Positions 446 through 40,981 of a stretch of DNA of 64,000 nucleotides are shown here, one piece after another. Position 1 is the stretch's first letter; each line of letters opens with the position of its first letter. The stretch is from Bacteriovoracia bacterium (GTDB taxonomy: Bacteria; Bdellovibrionota; UBA1018; JBFWNL01). Location of the stretch: NCBI GenBank assembly GCA_050251055.1, contig JBFWNL010000008.1, positions 96,001-160,000 on the forward strand, written 5' to 3'. The position numbers were made by a program, and so were the translations under genes. The notes under the pieces are model-generated. The model did no database searches and was not told where the DNA came from. It saw only the letters and a list, made by a program, of their open reading frames with translations.

Positions 446-808
446 AGGGATTGGCTTCCGCTCTCAGCGCTAAACGCGCTTCGGCTGCAGCCCGGCCTCA
501 GGGCGGGCCCGCAAGCGGGCACCCCCGCCCTTCCGGCTTTCACCGCTCGGCCATCGTGGCCTCACTATCCCTATAGCAAGGTACGAAACGCTACGCGTTT
601 CGGCATTATAAACCCACCATTTCTCAGCCACCGCCCGAGAACTTCTCGTCCAACATTCTCTTATAAAAAGACACAAGCCTCAGAGGGGGCATCCGCGGGC
701 CACGAAGGCGCTGAGCGGTTGAGCCCATGGATGGGCGTCCCCATCTGAGGCTTGTGTCTTTTTATAAGAGAATGTTGGCTGGGAAATTGTGGTGCGGTGG
801 CTGAGAAA
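446..808 (-). mobile_element. tRNA-Val 3'-associated structured fold-back element (putatively non-autonomous)
   Basis: 613-634 is the exact reverse complement of 794-815; 567-577 is that of 817-827; 446-453 directly repeats 822-829; 454-540 aligns ungapped with 38193-38279. The repeats are seen directly; mobility is inference. Confidence 0.65.
650..778. repeat. Perfect 35-bp inverted repeat enclosing a 59-nt GC-rich spacer
   Basis: CCAACATTCTCTTATAAAAAGACACAAGCCTCAGA (650-684) and its exact reverse complement (744-778). Confidence 0.95.
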
Positions 809-883
809 TGGTGGGAGCTATAGGGATTGAACCTATGACCTTGACCGTGTAAAGATCCTGCTCTACCGCTGAGCTAAGCTCCC
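809..883 (-). tRNA. tRNA-Val(TAC)
   Basis: Minus strand GGGAGCTTAGCTCAGCGGTAGAGC...TT TAC AC...GGTTCAATCCCTATAGCTCCCACCA; cloverleaf with encoded CCA. Confidence 0.93.
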
Positions 884-959: not shown

Positions 960-5102
<4,143 letters not shown>

Positions 5103-5154
5103 GGTCTTCTTTTCTCCGGTTCTTTAAAAACTAAGGCAAAGCGCGACATGCTCC

Positions 5155-8100
5155 TTAGAGCATGTCGGCTTTGATGTCCTTTTCGTTGTCGCCTTCGATC
5201 AATTCGACGTTCAGGGCCAAGCTTTGCAGCTCCTTCACCAAGACGTTGAACGACTCCGGCAATCCGGGCTCGAGCAGGTGCTCGCCCTTGACGATCGCTT
5301 CGTACATGCGGTTACGGCCCGTGACGTCGTCGGACTTCACGGTCAGGAATTCCTGCAATCCGTAAGCGGCACCGTAAGCTTCGAGCGCCCACACTTCCAT
5401 TTCCCCGAGTCGCTGACCGCCGAACTGGGCTTTGCCCCCGAGCGGCTGCTGCGTCACGAGGCTGTAAGGCCCGATGCTGCGCGCGTGGATCTTTTCTTCG
5501 ACCAAGTGGTGGAGCTTGAGGATGTACATCACGCCCACCGTGACTTCTTCGGCGAAGGTGTCGCCGGTCACGCCGTCAAACAACGTGGTCTTACCCAGGT
5601 TGGGCAAGCCCGCGAGCTCCAGCATGCGGCCGATCTCTTCCTCGTTCGCGCCGTCAAACACCGGCGTTGCGAAATGGATGCCGTCCTTGAGGTGCGAGCA
5701 CATCCGGCGCACTTCGGCGTCGGAGGCCTTCTCGAGGAACTTCTCCATGTCCGGATGCGAGTAGACGTCCTTGAGCAGCTTGCGCAGTTTCGGCATCTCT
5801 TCGCGCTCCACGTACTCGGTGATGCGATCGCCGATACCCTTGGCGGCCCAGCCGAGCGTGAGCTCGAGCAGCTGGCCGATGTTCATACGCGAAGGCACGC
5901 CCAGCGGGTTGAGCACCATATCCACCGGCCGACCGTCCGCCGTGTAAGGCATGTCTTCGGCGGGGAGAATACGGCTGATCACGCCCTTGTTACCGTGGCG
6001 TCCGGCCATCTTGTCGCCAACTTGCAGCTTGCGCTTGATCGCGATCTGCACCTTGACCATCTTGATGACGCCGGGGGCGAGCTCGTCGCCCTTCTTCAGC
6101 TTGTCGATCTTGTCCTTGAACATGTGCTTGACGCCTTCGATCTTCTCGCGCGCCATCTTCATGATCTGGGAGATTTCCTTTTCGACGTCGTCCTTCACCG
6201 GGATGAAGCCCAAGAGATCGAACGGGATCGCCTGGAGCATCTTGCGGTCGAGCTTCTCGCCTTTCTTGAGCAGCTCTTGCGAGCCGTCTTCGGAGAGGAG
6301 CTTACCGGTGGTCATTACACCGTCGAGGATCTTCGCGAGCTTATTGAAAGCCGAGAAGCGAATGGCGTCGGACTCGATCTTTTCGTCGCGGCGGATCTTG
6401 GCGATATGCTCTTCCAAGATCTGCTTCGTGCGCTCATCCTGCTCCGTGCCTTCGCGAGCGAAGACCTGGGCATTGATAACCGTACCGAACACGCCCGAAG
6501 GCACGCGGAGTGAGGTATCGCGAACATCGCCGGCTTTCTCGCCGAAGATCGCGCGCAACAGCTTCTCTTCGGGAGAGAGCTGGGTTTCGCCCTTCGGCGT
6601 CACCTTACCAACGAGCACGTCGCCGGGCTTCACTTCCGCGCCGATGCGGATGATGCCGCTTTCGTCGAGGTCTTTCAGCGCTTCTTCACCGACGTTCGGG
6701 ATGTCGCGCGAAATTTCTTCCTTACCGAGCTTCGTATCGCGGGCCACGCATTCGAACTCTTCGATGTGGATCGAGGTGAATACGTCGTCCTTGATCACGC
6801 GTTCGGAGATCAGGATCGAGTCTTCGAAGTTGTAACCGCCCCACGGCATGAACGCCACGAGCACGTTCTGGCCGAGCGCCAGTTCACCGGCGTCGATGGA
6901 CGGACCGTCCGCCAAGACGTCGCCTTGCTTCACCTTATCGCCGACCTTCACGACCGGACGCTGGTTCAAGCAGGTGTTCTGGTTGGAACGCTGGTACTTC
7001 GTCAGGTTGTAGATATCGACATCGGACCCGATCTCGTCGCCGCGGAAATTCGTGCGGCGGACAACGATCTTGAACCCGTCGACCATGATGACTTCGCCGT
7101 CGTGCTTGGCGATCGCGACGTGACCGGAGTCACGCGCCACGATGCGCTCCACGCCCGTGCCCACGAACGGGGCATGGCTGCGGAGAAGCGGCACGGCCTG
7201 TCTTTGCATGTTGGAACCCATGAGCGCGCGGTTAGCGTCGTCATGCTCCAGGAACGGGATCAGGGAGGCGGCGATGGATACGAGCTGGTTCGGCGACACG
7301 TCCATGAGTTCCACGTCGTCGGCGTTCACCAACGAGTAGTCCCCTTTGCGGCGCACGGAGATCAGATCGTCCGTCGGGAGCTTTCCGGTCTTCAACGCCT
7401 TCGGCAGGACTTGGGCGATGATCTTGTTCTCTTCTTCGGTTGCCGTGAAGTACTTGATATCGTCGGCGAGTTTCTTCGCTTCGATCGTACGATACGGGGT
7501 CTCGATGAAACCGAACTCGTTCACGCGGGCGTAAGCCGACAGCGACGCGATCAGACCGATGTTCGGTCCTTCGGGCGTTTCAATCGGGCACAGACGGCCG
7601 TAGTGGGTGTTGTGAACGTCGCGGACTTCGAAGCCGGCGCGCTCGCGGGTCAAACCACCGGGCCCGAGGGCCGAGAGGCGACGCTTGTGCGTGACTTCGG
7701 ACAACGGGTTCGTCTGGTCCATGAACTGCGAGAGCTGGCTGGAGCCGAAGAATTCCTTCACGACGGCGGCCACCGGCTTCTGGTTGATCAAATCGTGCGG
7801 CATGAGCGTTTCCACTTCCTGGATGCTCATGCGTTCCTTGATCGCGCGTTCCATACGCACAAGACCGATACGGTACTGGTTTTCCACCAACTCGCCCACC
7901 GCGCGGACGCGGCGGTTGCCCAAGTGGTCGATGTCGTCGATCGTGCCGCGGCCGTTGTTGAGCTCGCAGAGATAGAACAACGTCGACATGATGTCGGCCT
8001 TGGTCAAAGTCGTGGTTTCCTCGGTGATCTTGTTTTCCGGGAACTTGTAATTGAGCTTCAAGCGGCCGACGCGCGAGAGGTCGTAGCGGTCGGGATTGAA

Positions 8101-14735: not shown

Positions 14736-14821
14736 TGGTGGAGAGGGAAGGGTTCGAACCTTCGAAGGCGTGAGCCGCCAGATTTACAGTCTGGTCCCTT
14801 TGACCGCTCGGGAACCTCTCC
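14736..14821 (-). tRNA. tRNA-Tyr(GTA)
   Basis: GGAGAGGTTCCCGAGCGG...CCAGA CT GTA AA TCTGG; long variable arm; CCA end. Confidence 0.95.
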
Positions 14822-37894: not shown

Positions 37895-37967
37895 CCCCGT
37901 TTTATACCCCTGAGAGCCCTTGCACTGCCAGGGGTTTTCCGGTAATCATGGGGCTTCGTTAAAAGGT

Positions 37968-38045
37968 GGACCCGTAGCTCAGTTGGATTAGAGCGCCACA
38001 CTACGGATGTGGAGGTCATAGGTTCGAACCCTGTCGGGTCCGCCA
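37968..38045 (+). tRNA. tRNA-Arg(ACG)
   Basis: GGACCCGTAGCTCAG...CCACA CT ACG GA TGTGG...GGTTCGAACCCTGTCGGGTCCGCCA. Confidence 0.95.
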
Positions 38046-38444
38046 TTTCTAAAGTTCCTGTCTTCATTCAAATTCTACAAATAAGTAACTAAGCCCCTGA
38101 GACATCACTACGCGTGCGTAAGCGCACTTTAGAAATGGCGGAGAATACAAAAGGCAAAACGCGAAGCGTTTTGTACCTTACGACAGGGTTCGAAAGGCGG
38201 AAGCCGCCGGGTGCCCGCTTGCGGGCGGCGGCTGAGCCCGGCCTGCAGCCGAAGCGCGAGGAGCGCTGAGAGCGGAAGGCGAACCCTGTCGGGTCCGCCA
38301 TTTCTAAAGTTCCTGTCTTCATTCAAATTCTACAAATAAGTAACTAAGCCCCTGAGACATCACTACGCGTGCGTAAGCGCACTTTAGAAATGGCGGAGAA
38401 TACAAAAGGCAAAACGCGAAGCGTTTTGTACCTTACGACAGGGT
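38025..38444 (+). repeat. Perfect 165-bp direct repeat starting inside tRNA-Arg (period 255 bp)
   Basis: 38025-38189 equals 38280-38444. The copies are separated by a 90-nt GC-rich structured segment. Confidence 0.95.
38046..38444 (+). mobile_element. tRNA-Arg 3'-associated structured fold-back element (same family as 446-808)
   Basis: 38126-38142 is the reverse complement of 38039-38055; 38181-38194 is that of 38023-38036; core 38193-38279 is homologous to 454-540. Mobility is inference. Confidence 0.65.
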
Positions 38445-38470
38445 CGATAAATTGGCAGGTGAGCCAAACA

Positions 38471-40981
38471 TTACCGGGTCCTCACCAAGCGCAGGCCCTG
38501 GATGCCACCTTGGTGGCACTCAGGCACTAACGCTCCCCGGCTAGCTGACCTCAGGTCACGAGCAACGCTAAGCCAACTTCCCCCGCGGTACACACGTTCT
38601 TTGCCGGAGGAAGGCCCCAGAGGGTTGTGGGTGGTGCCCGCGAGCTGCGTATCGCTCAACCCATAGTTCACGTCGTAAAAATCTTGCACCCACTGGTGTA
38701 CGTTTCCATGCATATCTATCAGTCCAAAGCCATTCCTTTTTCCACGATGTAATTCGACCTCATGGGTAATCCGTCCAGAGTTTTCAGAAAACCAAGCGAC
38801 CTCTTTGAGCTTCGTATAAGCGTCGTCATCCTCACCAAAAAAAAAGCTCCCTGGATTCCCTCCACGTGCGGCCCATTCCCATTCCGCTTCAGTGGGCAAA
38901 CGGTATGTAAAGCCATCGTTCGATTTTTTATTGAGATTTCGAATGAATGCCTGGGCCCCATCCCAAGAAACACTGTCAACTGGGTTGTTAGGGCAGATCT
39001 TAAGAACGGGATCAAAAGTATCTGGGCAAAAAGCTTCACCATCGTGGATCGCTCGCACCGTCTCTAATAATCCCGTCCCCCTCATCACACTGTACCATTG
39101 TCGCTGAGTAACGGGGGTAACGCCCATTTCGAAACCATCAACCCTCACCCAGTGCCTCTTTTCGTTTCGATACCGACCGGGCTCCGAATCCGGACTTCCC
39201 ATTTGAAAGGTCCCACCTGGAATCGGAACAAATTCCAGGTCGAGATCGCTTGGCATTTCACGTTGAATCATATCTACTATTTTTCGATAAACATCCGAAA
39301 AAAAGGCTCGGGGGACCGCGTGCGCGTTGACTCTTGACACAAAAGCCTGAAGCTCTGGATAAATGCTCGCTATTTGAATCAAATCTGGAAGGCTAATTCC
39401 AAACTCTGCGGCCGCACGCTTGAGATCCACATCGTTTTCAAAACGATCCGTCAAATAGCGAATGGGCTCAGGATCACCGGAACCCGTACGCTTCACGCCC
39501 GCGTTTTTCATCGCCTCAATAAAACGACGCGAGTCCTCGGTAAACGCGGCCTGGAGCGCGTCATTTCCACGGTAGGTCGAAAAAATCTCGTCCAAGTCCT
39601 CCTGTCTAAAGAGGCTAGTGTTTTTGTCCACATACGCCCGCACTTGATCCGAGCGCCTCTGGATACCTTGGTTGTGGCAGGAGATACAAGAAATCCCGTT
39701 CACAATGACGGCATTCCTCCGCGAAGCATCCTGAACAATCGGAGTCGGAGCTTCATCTATGCGTTGATGGTCCGAAGTCACAAGCATGTAGGCTTGAAGA
39801 CCATTGGGGAGATTCCAGATAATTTCGCCTCCGGCATGCTTAAACTGTCCGGCACCGTCGCCGGGCCCAAGCGGTCGCGAGAACAAATCCGACGCGCCGG
39901 TACTTTCTTTAAAGTCGTAAGACTTCCAATACGCGCCATCTCTGATCTTATGGCGCTCGATCATGCGATTATTTTGCGAAACACCCGAGTCTGTGAAGGC
40001 CGCCCGTAGGACGCGCCTCGATTTGATATCTCTGTCGACATCGATCCCAACCAAATCACGTTCAAGCGCCGTATCCGTATCGGGGATATTTAAGAACTGA
40101 TAATAAAGAGGCGGCCTGGCTGCGGCAAATGCAAACCAATCACCCCTCGTGTAGAAAAGTCCGGTTCCAGTTTGAATTTGAATAAAGCTGACAGCGGAAT
40201 CAAAAGCGTAACCGTAACTCAAATAAGGACTGCTGCCCGCTACCCGATCCCAGACTTGCGCACTCCATCCCAACGCGCCAATATCCACGCGGTAGACCAG
40301 GCGATTGGCATCAATAGCCTGAAGTGGGAAAAGGCTTTCTTGGGAGCTTAGTGAGTTAACCAGCTTTGTGAGAGCATCCCTAAATATATCAAGATCATCA
40401 GCTGAATCACCGGCCGCCGGCAGGTGGGCAAGCGACAGGTAACGAATGTCCCTGCGTTTACGTTCCGGCAACCGCTCTAAGTCCCTTGCGATGGCCCCGA
40501 AAAGATAAGAATAAGACGCCGTACCTGCGTCTTGCAGCACCCGTCCCTTTTCTTCTCCCGCCGTCGACGGGGCACCCGCCTTGATCCAAGCCAAAACGGT
40601 GTCCTTTTCTTTTTGGGTAAGTTTTCGGATTCCGGTCGCCGCAAGCTCATCTTTCGAGAGCTGTCGGACTTTTGGCATTTCATCGCTTTCGATGCGCTGA
40701 TAAAGCGAGGATTGGGCAGGGTCACTTAGATTGATGAAATCTGGGTTGCTCCTAAGTTTTTCAAAATCCAAAACAGAATCGAATCCGCCACGCACTTTTT
40801 TTCCCGGCTCTCCGTGACAGTAAAAACAATTGGCCTTAAAAATCGATTGAACCGAGCGCGCGAGCCTTTCCGCATCGGCATCTTGCGGTAATAGATTGGA
40901 TGCCCACGTCGGCACCGCGACAACGGACACAGAAACGGTCAAAGCAAAAAAGGTAAACGCGGAAAATAGCTTGGAGCGCAT
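38471..40981 (-). CDS. Secreted protein with two c-type heme motifs and a C-terminal FGE-sulfatase/C-type-lectin-fold domain
   Basis: Signal peptide; CFYCH (planctomycete cytochrome c-like) and CISCH; FQMGS, RLPTEAEWE, DMHGNV.QW, RGGSW. Confidence 0.85.
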   Translation of the reverse strand: MRSKLFSAFTFFALTVSVSVVAVPTWASNLLPQDADAERLARSVQSIFKANCFYCHGEPGKKVRGGFDSVLDFEKLRSNPDFINLSDPAQSSLYQRIESDEMPKVRQLSKDELAATGIRKLTQKEKDTVLAWIKAGAPSTAGEEKGRVLQDAGTASYSYLFGAIARDLERLPERKRRDIRYLSLAHLPAAGDSADDLDIFRDALTKLVNSLSSQESLFPLQAIDANRLVYRVDIGALGWSAQVWDRVAGSSPYLSYGYAFDSAVSFIQIQTGTGLFYTRGDWFAFAAARPPLYYQFLNIPDTDTALERDLVGIDVDRDIKSRRVLRAAFTDSGVSQNNRMIERHKIRDGAYWKSYDFKESTGASDLFSRPLGPGDGAGQFKHAGGEIIWNLPNGLQAYMLVTSDHQRIDEAPTPIVQDASRRNAVIVNGISCISCHNQGIQRRSDQVRAYVDKNTSLFRQEDLDEIFSTYRGNDALQAAFTEDSRRFIEAMKNAGVKRTGSGDPEPIRYLTDRFENDVDLKRAAAEFGISLPDLIQIASIYPELQAFVSRVNAHAVPRAFFSDVYRKIVDMIQREMPSDLDLEFVPIPGGTFQMGSPDSEPGRYRNEKRHWVRVDGFEMGVTPVTQRQWYSVMRGTGLLETVRAIHDGEAFCPDTFDPVLKICPNNPVDSVSWDGAQAFIRNLNKKSNDGFTYRLPTEAEWEWAARGGNPGSFFFGEDDDAYTKLKEVAWFSENSGRITHEVELHRGKRNGFGLIDMHGNVHQWVQDFYDVNYGLSDTQLAGTTHNPLGPSSGKERVYRGGSWLSVARDLRSASRGALVPECHQGGIQGLRLVRTR

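What the first reader, a model, noticed from the sequence alone, without database searches (positions are those of the whole stretch)
38193..38279. 87-nt core conserved in structure: six compensatory base-pair changes between two copies
Seen: ungapped alignment with the reverse complement of 454-540 gives 70/87 identity. Ten mismatches convert stem GGGCGG/CCGCCC into GCCGCC/GGCGGC (5 pairs). Two more swap C-G to G-C in the outer AGSC/GSCT stem. Three lie in the loop of the GCGC-N5-GCGC hairpin. GCCCGC-TT-GCGGGC and the repeated GAAG/CTGAG internal-loop motifs are invariant. The core is closed by a stem formed from the antisense and sense tRNA T-arm copies. This indicates selection on a single-stranded fold (ncRNA or ssDNA).
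Basis: seen in the sequence. Interest (0 to 1): 0.85.

Follow-up and report, generated by a model that had tools for sequence, protein, structure and literature searches.

The report
Structured core of tRNA-anchored fold-back elements
The 87-base stretch is one copy of a previously uncatalogued, strongly structure-conserved noncoding module that sits in small repeat elements lodged at the 3' ends of tRNA genes in predatory (Bdellovibrio-type) bacteria, and these elements carry sense and antisense copies of the tRNA end they sit in.

Summary
The two window copies are 70/87 identical. All 17 differences are structure-neutral: 14 form 7 compensated pairs and 3 lie in a hairpin loop.

The core is a family, not a pair.
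- The genome holds 8 copies, 7 within 250 nt downstream of a different tRNA gene and one in a second unit at tRNA-Asp.
- It occurs in 15 of 61 related genomes and 21 of 151 genomes of the phylum.
- No Rfam family matches.
- On 36 copies, 95% of cells pair and 34 of 40 pairs show double changes; 0 of 500 shuffles reach this.

The core always sits on the T-loop axis, between an antisense copy of tRNA positions 54-68 and a sense copy starting at position 56. In 15 of 26 loci that sense copy runs on to CCA, which gives att-like direct repeats.

One repeat unit, folded as a single-stranded circle, is a rod in which the tRNA 3' end is base-paired. Core similarity does not follow tRNA identity.

Best reading: the core is the terminal domain of small, non-autonomous elements that target tRNA genes. 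It is selected as a single-stranded fold. Whether that strand is RNA or DNA is open. The scan noted these same window stretches before, not other DNA.

The parts
37968..38045 (+). tRNA-Arg(ACG) gene. Its last 21 nt (38025-38045, tRNA positions 56-76) are the left copy of the direct repeat (O, S1).
   Evidence: ARAGORN; Rfam RF00005 63.9 bits; sequence.
38039..38142 (+). H1: a long trailer hairpin. Its 5' arm is the acceptor 3' end plus CCA plus trailer. Its 3' arm ends in an antisense copy of tRNA positions 70-76 (38136-38142).
   Evidence: Read; folded.
38143..38179 (+). INS: an A/T-rich box (38143-38155), a small hairpin H2 AAAACGCGAAGCGTTTT (38156-38172) and the conserved linker GTACCTT (38173-38179). 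It interrupts the antisense tRNA copy at position 69.
   Evidence: H2 is helix 1: 99% of cells paired, 7 of 7 pairs with double changes.
38180..38194 (+). Antisense copy of tRNA-Arg positions 54-68 (acgacagggttcgaa). It is the 5' strand of closing stem P1.
   Evidence: Read; helix 2.
38195..38279 (+). Type-1 core, the finding (given as 38193-38279). It has two hairpin domains joined by CTGCAG: P2 (GGC..GCC, a variable 6-7-bp stem, a GGG bulge, CCCG-CUUG-CGGG) and P3 (GCCT..AAGG, CCG..CGG, GCGC-loop-GCGC).
   Evidence: cmsearch 159.8 bits.
38280..38444 (+). Second copy of the repeat R, 100% identical to 38025-38189. It holds the sense tRNA positions 56-76 (38280-38300, S2, 3' strand of P1), then H1, INS and the antisense T-arm again, but no second core. 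It breaks off inside the antisense T-loop copy.
   Evidence: the repeat finder D1; weak partial cmsearch hit 38411-38502.
809..883 (-). tRNA-Val(TAC) gene, anchor of the second window copy.
   Evidence: ARAGORN; Rfam.
613..815 (-). H1 of the Val element: arms of 77 nt, 90% complementary, starting in the acceptor 3' end. The apex carries the conserved motif GACGCCCATCCATGGGC.
   Evidence: the repeat finder I2.
539..612 (-). Val element, in order: TTTATAAT box, H2 (601-585), GTACCTT (584-578), antisense tRNA positions 58-68 (577-567), an extra 24-nt hairpin (566-543), antisense positions 54-57 (542-539).
Evidence: Read; alignment.
454..538 (-). Type-1 core, second window copy (the finding's partner, given as 454-540).
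   Evidence: cmsearch 130.4 bits.
446..453 (-). Partial sense copy of tRNA-Val positions 56-63 (caatccct). Unrelated sequence follows.

Best explanation
WHAT IT IS (high confidence, about 0.85). The 87-nt stretch is a copy of a conserved, roughly 85-nt two-hairpin module, here called the type-1 core. It belongs to a family of small (about 165-380 nt) noncoding repeat elements lodged at the 3' ends of tRNA and tmRNA genes in Bdellovibrionota.

A full unit reads, in order:
1. tRNA positions 56-76 (O);
2. a trailer hairpin (H1, optional, often with a conserved apex);
3. an antisense copy of positions 70-76;
4. an A/T box, the small hairpin H2 and GTACC (together INS);
5. an antisense copy of positions 54-68;
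6. the core;
7. then O again.

The two O copies are the direct repeats expected of site-specific integration into the tRNA gene (attL/attR). The elements encode no protein, so they would be non-autonomous, comparable to cis-mobilizable elements.

HOW IT WORKS (inferred, about 0.5). One unit taken as a single strand closes into a rod. O is base-paired along nearly its whole length, positions 57-68 to one antisense segment and 70-76 to the other. The core caps one end of the rod, the H1 apex caps the other, and INS sticks out as a side branch at position 69.

I propose that this folded single strand is the working form of the element's attachment region. It would present a duplex copy of the target tRNA 3' end, as folded integron attC sites and the CTX-phage attP(+) hairpin present their sites. 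The core would be the conserved terminal structure that a trans-acting protein reads. That protein is most likely a tyrosine recombinase, possibly a priming or processing factor.

SHOWN: the fold and its covariation; the fixed register relative to tRNA numbering; the direct repeats; the multi-copy, patchy, phylum-wide spread; the decoupling of core sequence from tRNA identity.

INFERRED: mobility itself; the acting enzyme; whether the folded strand is DNA or a transcript.
For: Family and place
- 8 copies in this genome. 7 lie 115-250 nt downstream of a different tRNA gene (Arg, Val, Gln, His, Asp, Leu, Ala). The eighth lies behind a degenerate tRNA-Asp 3' fragment.
- 26 of 33 examined copies have a tRNA or tmRNA within 700 nt upstream on the same strand (ARAGORN).

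Register
- The sense copy after the core starts at tRNA position 56 in 19 of those 26 loci, and at 55-61 by exact-run matching in the other 7.
- It runs 17 nt or more to or past CCA in 15 of 26.

Structure
- 40 pairs, 18 with double changes, on a MAFFT alignment.
- 36 sequences, 95.0% of cells paired against 74.3% in shuffles; 34 of 40 pairs with double changes; 0 of 500 shuffles as high; slid controls 34-45%.
- The fold is more stable than shuffles: z = -3.6.

Strand
- G-U vs A-C cells: 25 vs 12 in the core and 24 vs 4 in H1.

Rod
- In 13 of 13 units folded as circles, 16-21 of the 21 O positions are paired.
- In 10 of the 13, positions 57-67/68 pair to the antisense T-arm and 70-76 to the antisense acceptor.
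- MFE lies about 2 to 16 sd below mononucleotide shuffles, under 6 sd in 2 of 13 units.

Insertion-like behaviour
- In G025 (L007) an element plus about 600 nt sits between tRNA-Tyr and tRNA-Gly. In this window those two genes are 63 nt apart.
- In G109 (L091), tRNA-Gly, -Tyr and -Trp of one cluster each carry their own minimal element, flanked by 18-21-nt repeats.
- Tandem units occur.

Decoupling from the target
- The nearest-neighbour core is at the same tRNA species in only 1 of 34 cases, and in the same genome at another tRNA in 12 of 34.
- Identity reaches 0.93 between genera at different tRNAs.

Recombinases
- A PF00589 tyrosine integrase ends 150-320 nt upstream of the core, on the same strand, at G013:C18, G007:C10 and G024:C74. 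By coordinates the same holds at G013:C16 and G056:C108.
- The G007 case closes a 13.4-kb island that begins at tRNA-Pro and carries a relaxase.
- This genome has 8 PF00589 genes. It has no hit to Y1 transposase, IS110 DEDD, the TnpB zinc ribbon or RVT_1.

Other modules at the same axis
- tRNA-Lys(TTT) carries a longer core, tRNA-Phe and tRNA-Arg(TCG) carry shorter ones, and tRNA-Leu(TAG) has a core deleted between its GCGGAAG repeats. This is as variable terminal structures would behave.
Against: - No excised circle, empty-site/filled-site pair in close strains, or junction read was found. The only runs holding this DNA are short contigs broken at the repeats.
- Integrase homologues are not linked to the core across genomes: 10 of 15 core-positive against 25 of 46 core-negative relatives. 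None of this genome's 8 recombinase genes lies next to a core.
- The five integrase-adjacent cases may be coincidence: an island that integrated into the same tRNA ahead of an older mini-element. The truncated tRNA-like piece between integrase and H1 fits that reading.
- A classical double-stranded integration at O would give the same integrated structure without any folding.
- attC terminal structures are not sequence-conserved, whereas this core is, including its unpaired bases. That is more typical of a functional RNA.
- A CUUG tetraloop closed by G-C, and GNRA loops in two copies, are RNA-like features by my recollection of tetraloop families.
- How sense and antisense arms are re-matched to a new tRNA is unexplained.
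- In 6 of this genome's 8 copies the sense copy after the core is only 4-10 nt long by exact match, so many copies may be decaying.
- The alignment behind one search was fitted to the model's structure, which inflates pairing somewhat. One search does not have this bias but rests on only 8 sequences.
Confidence: 0.5

Rival explanations
1. The core is a free-standing small noncoding RNA, or a tRNA-operon co-transcript. It would be transcribed from the A/T box just upstream of H2, with the T-loop (TTCRAA) as a possible -35 in elements that lack H1. The RNA would run H2, GUACC, antisense T-arm, core, sense tRNA 3' end. It would act in trans or in cis, for instance on the neighbouring tRNA, on integrase expression, or on the element's maintenance.
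For: - Conserved unpaired bases plus covariation are typical of functional RNAs.
- G-U exceeds A-C on the tRNA-sense strand.
- CUUG and GNRA-type loops are present (the loop families are recalled).
- A TAnAAT-like box lies 3-5 nt before H2 in most copies (read by eye).
- In several relatives H1 looks like a terminator with a T-run, so a new transcription start after it is plausible.
- The core stays intact where the flanking sense copy has decayed.
Against: - The sigma-70 consensus scan finds no promoter at either window copy.
- This reading leaves three things without a role: the antisense acceptor segment, the near-perfect 30-75-bp H1 arms, and the fixed position of INS at position 69. The rod model accounts for all three.
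- No protein partner or target is evident.
Confidence: 0.3
2. The core is a host-serving part of tRNA transcription units in this lineage, for example a processing stem, a terminator or an insulator. It would be inherited vertically at each tRNA and homogenised by gene conversion, and would not be mobile.
For: - It is always co-oriented with a tRNA and lies just downstream.
- H1-type hairpins with the same apex motif follow many tRNAs of this genome that lack the core: 15 of 29 motif hits are within 400 nt of a tRNA on the same strand.
- Cores are often most alike within a genome (12 of 34), as concerted evolution would give.
Against: - Distribution is patchy: 15 of 61 relatives, 21 of 151 in the phylum, 0 of 19 in family f11.
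- Different genomes carry it at different tRNAs, and at tmRNA.
- Direct repeats of the tRNA 3' end and tandem units are marks of integration.
- Identity reaches 0.93 between genera at different tRNAs.
- An antisense copy that pairs with the acceptor 3' strand would compete with tRNA folding.
Confidence: 0.08
3. The conserved sequence is read as double-stranded DNA, as an array of recombinase, excisionase or IHF binding sites in the P arm of attP. An example would be the direct GCGGAAG repeats at both ends of the core. On this reading the hairpins are incidental palindromes.
For: - The core lies between the integrase gene and the displaced tRNA fragment in five loci.
- GCGGAAG-like repeats bracket the core, and a deletion between them exists at tRNA-Leu(TAG).
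- The integrase of the G007:C10 island (L036) gives a weak, sub-threshold match to an arm-binding domain (PF14657, 19.5 bits against a 22.3-bit cut-off, E=7e-4).
Against: - 34 of 40 pairs change on both sides while keeping complementarity. Selection on duplex binding sites does not predict this.
- The strand asymmetry of G-U over A-C is not expected for duplex sites.
- Stem sequences such as GCCGCC and GGGCGG are freely swapped.
Confidence: 0.07
4. The core is a guide-type RNA of a known RNA-guided mobile-element enzyme, namely an IS110 bridge RNA or a TnpB/IscB omega RNA. The tRNA-matching flanks would be the guides.
For: Sense and antisense target-matching segments flank a conserved scaffold, which superficially resembles a scaffold with guides.
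Against: - PF01548 (IS110 DEDD) is found in 11 of 61 relatives but only 2 of the 15 core-positive ones, and not in this genome.
- PF07282 (TnpB zinc ribbon) is found in 3 of 61 and not in this genome.
- No such gene lies next to any examined copy.
- The two supposed guides pair with each other in P1.
- No Rfam hit.
Confidence: 0.02

Closest known systems
tRNA/tmRNA-gene-targeting integrative elements of tyrosine integrases, their decayed non-autonomous forms (CIMEs), and tandem accretion at tRNA genes. Seen in passages of PMC5704250 and passages of the tycheposon preprint 10.1101/2020.12.28.424599. Williams 2002 is known to me only as a reference in that preprint and from recall.
   Same: - Location at the 3' end of tRNA and tmRNA genes.
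- A direct repeat of the tRNA 3' segment, with the gene restored by the element's own copy.
- Tandem units separated by partial tRNAs.
- No integrase in most units.
- Integrase-bearing islands at the same sites.
   Different: - The units are tiny (about 165-380 nt) and wholly noncoding.
- They carry antisense copies of the target in a fixed register, plus a conserved, covarying structured core and side hairpin.
- The same core serves at least 18 tRNA species plus tmRNA, whereas tycheposon integrases are each specific to one tRNA.
- A 'find' for 'hairpin' in the main text of that preprint gave 0 hits. Its supplements were not seen.
Folded single-stranded recombination sites: integron attC (search listing only; details recalled) and the CTX-phage attP(+) forked hairpin (recalled).
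   Same: - Two inverted copies of the recombination site are separated by a spacer of variable terminal structure.
- A single strand folds so that the site becomes duplex.
- Extra-helical features sit at a fixed place.
- Short noncoding or cassette-like units form arrays next to one platform.
- Tyrosine recombinases are the acting enzymes.
   Different: - The target is a tRNA gene, not attI or dif.
- No attC R/L box consensus is visible by reading the sequences.
- The terminal structure here is strongly conserved in sequence as well as in fold.
- No IntI-type or Xer dependence has been shown.
REP/REPIN and IS200/IS605-derived palindromic miniature elements (search listing only; details recalled).
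   Same: They are multi-copy, GC-rich, hairpin-forming, non-autonomous repeats whose stems are kept by compensatory change.
   Different: - No Y1 (RAYT/IS200) transposase hit in this genome.
- Strict tRNA 3'-end location with long target repeats.
- A three-way-junction core rather than a simple hairpin.
IS110 bridge RNA and TnpB omega RNA (recalled).
   Same: A structured noncoding scaffold at a mobile-element end, flanked by target-matching segments.
   Different: The partner enzymes are not found in this genome and are not linked across relatives. The two target-matching segments are complementary to each other.

Membership tests
Any Rfam 15 family | Covariance-model match at the family's gathering score. 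| tested here: not met
   (whole window, gathering threshold) found only 7 tRNAs. One search (37900-38700, E<=10) found nothing over the core except AaHKsRNA22 at 15.9 bits against a gathering score of 39.8, E = 2.7.
tDNA-integrating element / cis-mobilizable element (CIME) | Sits at the 3' end of a tRNA or tmRNA gene, co-oriented with it. | tested here: met
   26 of 33 copies have a tRNA or tmRNA within 700 nt upstream on the same strand. In this genome, 7 of 8 do.
tDNA-integrating element / cis-mobilizable element (CIME) | Flanked by direct repeats of the tRNA 3' segment (attL/attR), with the gene kept intact. | tested here: met
   In 15 of 26 loci the sense copy after the core matches the tRNA from about position 56 for 17 nt or more, to or past CCA. 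In 11 of 26 the exact run is only 4-10 nt. The window Arg copy has a 165-nt exact repeat.
tDNA-integrating element / cis-mobilizable element (CIME) | A cognate integrase in cis (autonomous element) or in trans (CIME). | tested here: inconclusive
   PF00589 genes lie directly upstream of 5 copies. There are 8 PF00589 genes in this genome, none adjacent to a core. No co-occurrence across 61 genomes.
tDNA-integrating element / cis-mobilizable element (CIME) | Demonstrated excision or integration (empty site, circular junction). | tested here: inconclusive
   The only evidence is a cross-genus comparison: tRNA-Tyr to tRNA-Gly is 63 nt here against about 870 nt with an element in L007. Contigs of 4 runs gave no joint.
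Integron attC site | R''/L''-L'/R' boxes with a GTTRRRY-type recombination point, and an IntI integrase. | tested here: not met
   By reading, the junction after the core is CGA(A/G/T/C)NCC, that is tRNA positions 56-62, in the copies. No GTTRRRY box is seen there. Presence of IntI was not tested.
IS110 bridge RNA | Encoded beside a DEDD (PF01548) recombinase, with the two loops carrying non-complementary guides. | tested here: not met
   PF01548 has 0 hits in this genome and occurs in 2 of 15 core-positive relatives. The flanking segments pair with each other.
TnpB/IscB omega RNA | Overlaps or follows a tnpB/iscB gene, with the guide at the 3' end. | tested here: not met
   PF07282 has 0 hits in this genome and occurs in 3 of 61 relatives. 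No such ORF lies near the examined copies.
REP/REPIN with RAYT, or an IS200/IS605 miniature element | A Y1 HUH transposase (PF01797) in the genome, and a simple REP hairpin or hairpin doublet. | tested here: not met
   PF01797 has 0 hits in this genome, which is 93.5% complete. The fold is a three-way junction.
Retron or other reverse-transcriptase-linked ncRNA | A reverse transcriptase gene in cis. | tested here: not met
   PF00078 has 0 hits in this genome. One relative's locus (L040) has an RVT_1 ORF on the opposite strand next to a copy; I take it as island cargo.

The most novel reading that the evidence does not exclude
These would be a new class of target-programmable, protein-less integrating elements. 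The single-stranded unit folds into a rod that displays a duplex replica of the target tRNA 3' end. A conserved terminal domain (the core) and a side hairpin recruit a host or island tyrosine recombinase. Specificity is then set by the element's own sense and antisense arms rather than by the protein. That would explain why nearly identical cores serve many different tRNAs and tmRNA. Re-matching the arms would retarget the element.
Probability: 0.2. Interest if true: 0.9.

Novelty: new variant of a known kind. Interest (0 to 1): 0.7.

Why it matters
If the reading holds, tRNA genes of predatory bacteria host a hidden layer of tiny noncoding elements. Their attachment region would be a folded nucleic acid that carries its own copy of the target.

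This would extend the small set of recombination systems that read folded single strands (integron attC, CTX phage) to the commonest integration target in bacteria.

It would also raise the possibility that target choice lies in exchangeable arms around a constant scaffold. That is the feature which made bridge RNAs and omega RNAs useful.

Even on the conservative reading, this is a new, well-supported structured motif with about 70 or more copies in the genomes searched. It deserves a curated family. It also marks island-forming hot spots in Bdellovibrionota genomes.

Tried and rejected
- Rfam. Gathering threshold over the window and E<=10 over the locus gave nothing for the core.
- Expression. 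The look-up of sequencing runs listed no RNA holder, so this says nothing about expression.
- Reads. Read laying on 4 DNA runs gave only short contigs that break at the repeats, with no joints and no variant lacking the 255-nt unit. It is uninformative.
- Promoters. The sigma-70/terminator scan found no promoter at either window copy. It flagged H2 of the Arg copy as terminator-like on the opposite strand only. I do not take that as general, because the other copies lack the T-run.
- Integrase co-occurrence. Homologues are widespread and not linked to the core.
- Far ends of integrase islands without a core. I tried to find them in order to learn their crossover site. No tRNA turned up within 40 kb at G001:C1 or to the contig end at G015:C12, and no repeat at this genome's C5 island. 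The recurrent microhairpin next to these integrases (for example GGCGG-CGAAT-CCGCCA) stays unexplained.
- Ideas considered and dropped:
  - A hammerhead-like CUGANGA core. The motif is not met, and there is no Rfam hit.
  - A tRNA pseudogene with an insertion. The antisense copy is the perfect complement of the 3' strand including CCA and trailer, not the tRNA 5' strand.
  - Arms copied from the native trailer at insertion. The trailer after the second tRNA copy differs from the element's arm at tRNA-Gln.
  - A group II intron or a retron. The size is wrong, and no reverse transcriptase was found.
- Literature. Five full-text searches found no description of such elements. That is the whole basis for 'not in print'. 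Supplements were closed and not seen.
- Not run: complex prediction, structure prediction and protein database searches. There is no protein in the finding.
Full report
1. The observation

The plus strand at 38193-38279 and the reverse complement of 454-540 align without gaps at 70 of 87 positions. The repeat finder reports the same pair as 97 nt, 80% complementary.

- Ten of the 17 differences turn GCCGCC/GGCGGC into GGGCGG/CCGCCC.
- Three lie in the loop of the GCGC hairpin.
Position 5 pairs with 45, and position 50 pairs with 87.

That register is the one RNAalifold finds on a MAFFT alignment of the eight copies in this genome. It is also the one that covaries across the family. So all 17 differences leave the fold untouched.

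2. It is a family

blastn and a covariance model built from the eight copies (R1) find eight strong copies in the 3.77-Mb genome.

- Seven lie 115-250 nt downstream of a different tRNA gene, on its strand: Arg-ACG, Val-TAC, Gln-TTG, His, Asp, Leu-CAG and Ala-CGC.
- The eighth lies 1 kb further along at the Asp locus, behind a degenerate tRNA-Asp 3' fragment.

R1 finds matches more widely.

- Among 61 genomes of the same order, own genome included, 15 match at E<=0.01. Twelve of these are below 1e-10, with up to 7 copies each, and 0 of 19 genomes of family f11 match.
- Among 151 genomes sampled across the phylum, 21 match at E<=1e-4, in at least six families.
- A gapped consensus pattern hits 12 stretches in named assemblies. 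Ten are labelled Bdellovibrionales, Bdellovibrionia, Oligoflexia or Bacteriovoracaceae MAGs, one 'candidate division WWE3' and one 'bacterium'.
- Rfam 15 has no family for it.

3. The fold

RNAalifold on the MAFFT alignment gives 40 pairs, 18 of them with changes on both sides. These are the parts:

- a small 5' hairpin (H2);
- a closing stem P1;
- a first domain: a 3-bp stem, an internal loop, a 6-7-bp variable stem, a GGG bulge and CCCG-CUUG-CGGG;
- a CUGCAG joiner;
- a second domain that ends in a GCGC hairpin.

On 36 copies aligned to the model (A2):

- 95.0% of 1361 cells are standard pairs, against 74.3% in shuffles.
- 34 of 40 pairs have double changes.
- 0 of 500 shuffles reach any of the five measures.
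- Sliding the partners by 1-3 columns drops pairing to 34-45%.

A2 is fitted to the model's structure, so one search is the less biased but smaller test.

The window copy folds 3.6 sd better than dinucleotide shuffles. The opposite strand also folds well, as any set of hairpins would. However, G-U/U-G cells outnumber A-C/C-A cells 25 to 12 on the tRNA-sense strand. The Leu and Ala copies have GAAA and GUGA loops on that strand.

4. The context has a fixed register

Reading 33 copies against their tRNAs gives one plan:

- tRNA positions 1-76;
- often a long hairpin H1 that starts inside the acceptor 3' strand;
- an antisense copy of positions 70-76 (69-76 in the L007 Tyr copy);
- an A/T-rich box, hairpin H2 and GTACC (together INS);
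- an antisense copy of positions 54-68;
- the core;
- a sense copy of the tRNA that starts at position 56.

The sense copy starts at 56 in 19 of the 26 loci with a tRNA. In the other 7, exact-run matching puts the start at 55-61 because of single mismatches. The sense copy runs on for 17 nt or more, to or past CCA, in 15 of 26 loci. It stops after 4-10 exact nt in 11 of 26, which include six of this genome's eight copies.

The conserved GAA before the core and CGA after it are therefore T-loop sequence, not core.

H1 stems are near-perfect. Across 26 loci there are 1122 Watson-Crick pairs, 24 G-U pairs, 4 A-C and 17 other single mismatches. Yet their arms differ between elements.

Many H1 apexes carry GACGCCCATCCATGGGC. 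Of 29 hits to this motif in the genome (up to 2 substitutions), 15 lie within 400 nt downstream of a tRNA on its strand.

Small-genome relatives have minimal units without H1. In L091, tRNA-Trp is followed by box, H2, antisense T-arm and core, 165 nt in all, and then an exact 21-nt repeat of positions 56-76.

5. A rod

I took one unit, from position 56 of the tRNA to the last base of the core, and folded it as a circular single strand with RNA parameters. I did this for 13 units.

- In all 13, 16-21 of the 21 O positions are paired.
- In 10 of them, positions 57-67/68 pair with the antisense T-arm across the core, and positions 70-76 pair with the antisense acceptor across H1.
- The molecule is then a rod capped by the core at one end and the apex at the other, with INS as a side branch at position 69.
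- Energies lie about 2 to 16 sd below mononucleotide shuffles, and under 6 sd in 2 of the 13 units.

This single picture accounts for every module and for the fixed place of INS. It does not say whether the strand is DNA or RNA.

6. Signs of integration and spread

- Direct repeats of the tRNA 3' end bracket the units.
- Units occur in tandem: the window Arg locus with a 165-nt exact repeat, the Gln and Asp loci, and several relatives.
- In G025 an element plus a small ORF separates tRNA-Tyr from tRNA-Gly, which are 63 nt apart here. These are different genera, so this is suggestive only.
- Core similarity ignores the target. The nearest neighbour is at the same tRNA species in 1 of 34 cases and in the same genome at another tRNA in 12 of 34. 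Cores up to 0.93 identical sit at different tRNAs in different genera.
- Other modules occupy the same axis in this genome: a longer relative at tRNA-Lys(TTT), short ones at tRNA-Phe and tRNA-Arg(TCG), and a core deleted between its terminal GCGGAAG repeats at tRNA-Leu(TAG).

7. Which enzyme?

Tyrosine integrases (PF00589) end 150-320 nt upstream of the core, on the same strand, in three loci checked by Pfam and two more by coordinates. One of these closes a 13.4-kb island that starts at tRNA-Pro and carries a MobA/VirD2 relaxase.

But homologues occur in 35 of 61 relatives, 10 of 15 with the core and 25 of 46 without. None of this genome's eight PF00589 genes is next to a core.

The short tRNA-like piece between integrase and H1 is compatible with an island that landed in front of an older mini-element. 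So the adjacency may be indirect.

This genome gave no hit to Y1 transposase, IS110 DEDD, the TnpB zinc ribbon or RVT_1 (completeness 93.5%). A tyrosine recombinase acting in trans is therefore the only candidate I can name.

8. Reading

With high confidence, the finding is one copy of a new structured module of tRNA-gene-anchored, noncoding repeat elements.

I favour, at about 0.5, that the module is the terminal domain of a folded single-stranded attachment region that displays a duplex copy of the target, by analogy with attC and CTX attP(+). This analogy is recalled, not tested.

The main rival, at 0.3, is a transcript with its own function. In its favour are the conserved unpaired bases, the RNA-type tetraloops and a TAnAAT-like box before H2. 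Against it, the consensus scan sees no promoter, and this reading leaves H1, the antisense acceptor and the INS position unexplained.

H2 often reads GCGNAGC. I recall this as an unusually stable DNA mini-hairpin, which is a weak pointer the other way.

No RNA data exist for this organism in the runs offered.

How both arms are re-matched when the core appears at a new tRNA is the main unexplained point.

9. Comparison with what is known

The nearest known kind is the tDNA-targeting integrative element and its decayed, integrase-less form, together with tandem accretion at tRNA genes (passages read in PMC5704250, and in the tycheposon preprint).

The present elements differ in four ways. They are far smaller. 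They are wholly noncoding. They carry register-fixed antisense target copies and a covarying core. They use one core for many tRNAs, whereas tycheposon integrases are each tRNA-specific.

Five full-text searches found no description of them. Supplements were not available.

Earlier notes of this scan (e1-6373073, e1-6373077, e1-6373083) describe the same two window loci from the sequence alone. I found no note on other DNA.

Noticed in passing
own genome, e.g. G000:C1:126444, C4:53135, C4:265463, C8:63754 (outside the window); window 723-739 (-): The motif GACGCCCATCCATGGGC, a small hairpin at the apex of long palindromes, occurs 29 times (up to 2 substitutions). 15 of these lie within 400 nt downstream of a tRNA on its strand, including many tRNAs without the type-1 core. 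It looks like a second conserved module of the same element family.
   Followed up: partly
G000:C13, about 64000-64445 (-), downstream of tRNA-Lys(TTT): A longer structured insert of about 125 nt sits at the same T-loop axis, between a contiguous antisense copy of tRNA positions 54-75 and a sense copy from position 55. It shares CTGAG/GAAG and CCGAAGCGCGAGG motifs with the type-1 core and may be a 'type-2' core. It was not searched in Rfam or modelled.
   Followed up: no
L047, L048, L049, L066, L051, L052, L062 (loci of relatives, just downstream of integrase genes): Integrase-proximal island ends without a core carry a microhairpin of antisense acceptor end, T-loop-like CGAAT and acceptor end plus CCA (for example GGCGG-CGAAT-CCGCCA). 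This reads like a tRNA 3' half lacking positions 61-70. Arm-type-looking repeats (TGGCTGAG / TGTCTGAG) lie upstream. It is unexplained.
   Followed up: partly
window 38156-38172 and family-wide (H2): H2 frequently reads GCGAAGC / GCGGAGC / GCGTAGC / GCGCAGC in its centre. From memory, d(GCGNAGC) is an unusually stable DNA mini-hairpin found at single-strand origins. This could hint at a single-stranded DNA stage.
   Followed up: no
L091 (G109:C115) 1443-1560 and 1051-1160: In elements without H1, the A/T box directly follows CCA. The T-loop (TTCRAA) then lies 17-18 nt upstream of a TATAAA/TATTTA-like hexamer, which would be a possible promoter built from the tRNA gene's own 3' end (by eye). 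Not tested.
   Followed up: no
window 38471-40981 (-): An 836-aa ORF converges on the Arg element. It combines cytochrome c motifs (PF13442 25.5 bits against a cut-off of 27, sub-threshold; PF00034 23.6 bits against 21.3) with a C-terminal FGE-sulfatase domain (PF03781, E=1e-41).
   Followed up: no
L040 (G006:C8) 3904-6101 (-): A 271-aa RVT_1 reverse transcriptase overlaps a 464-aa ORF by a few bases. Both are divergent from, and about 110 nt away from, a core copy. They are probably a defence-type reverse-transcriptase system carried as island cargo.
   Followed up: no
L036/L044 (G007:C10:55035-68500): A 13.4-kb island between tRNA-Pro and the core/O repeat carries a MobA/VirD2 relaxase, two large ORFs (952 and 832 aa) and an integrase interrupted by masked bases.
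   Followed up: partly
window 14736-14761 (-), downstream of tRNA-Tyr: Even the element-free tRNA-Tyr trailer contains a short hairpin that pairs the acceptor 3' end (CTCCAC...GTGGAG). It may be a remnant of an older element or a native feature.
   Followed up: no
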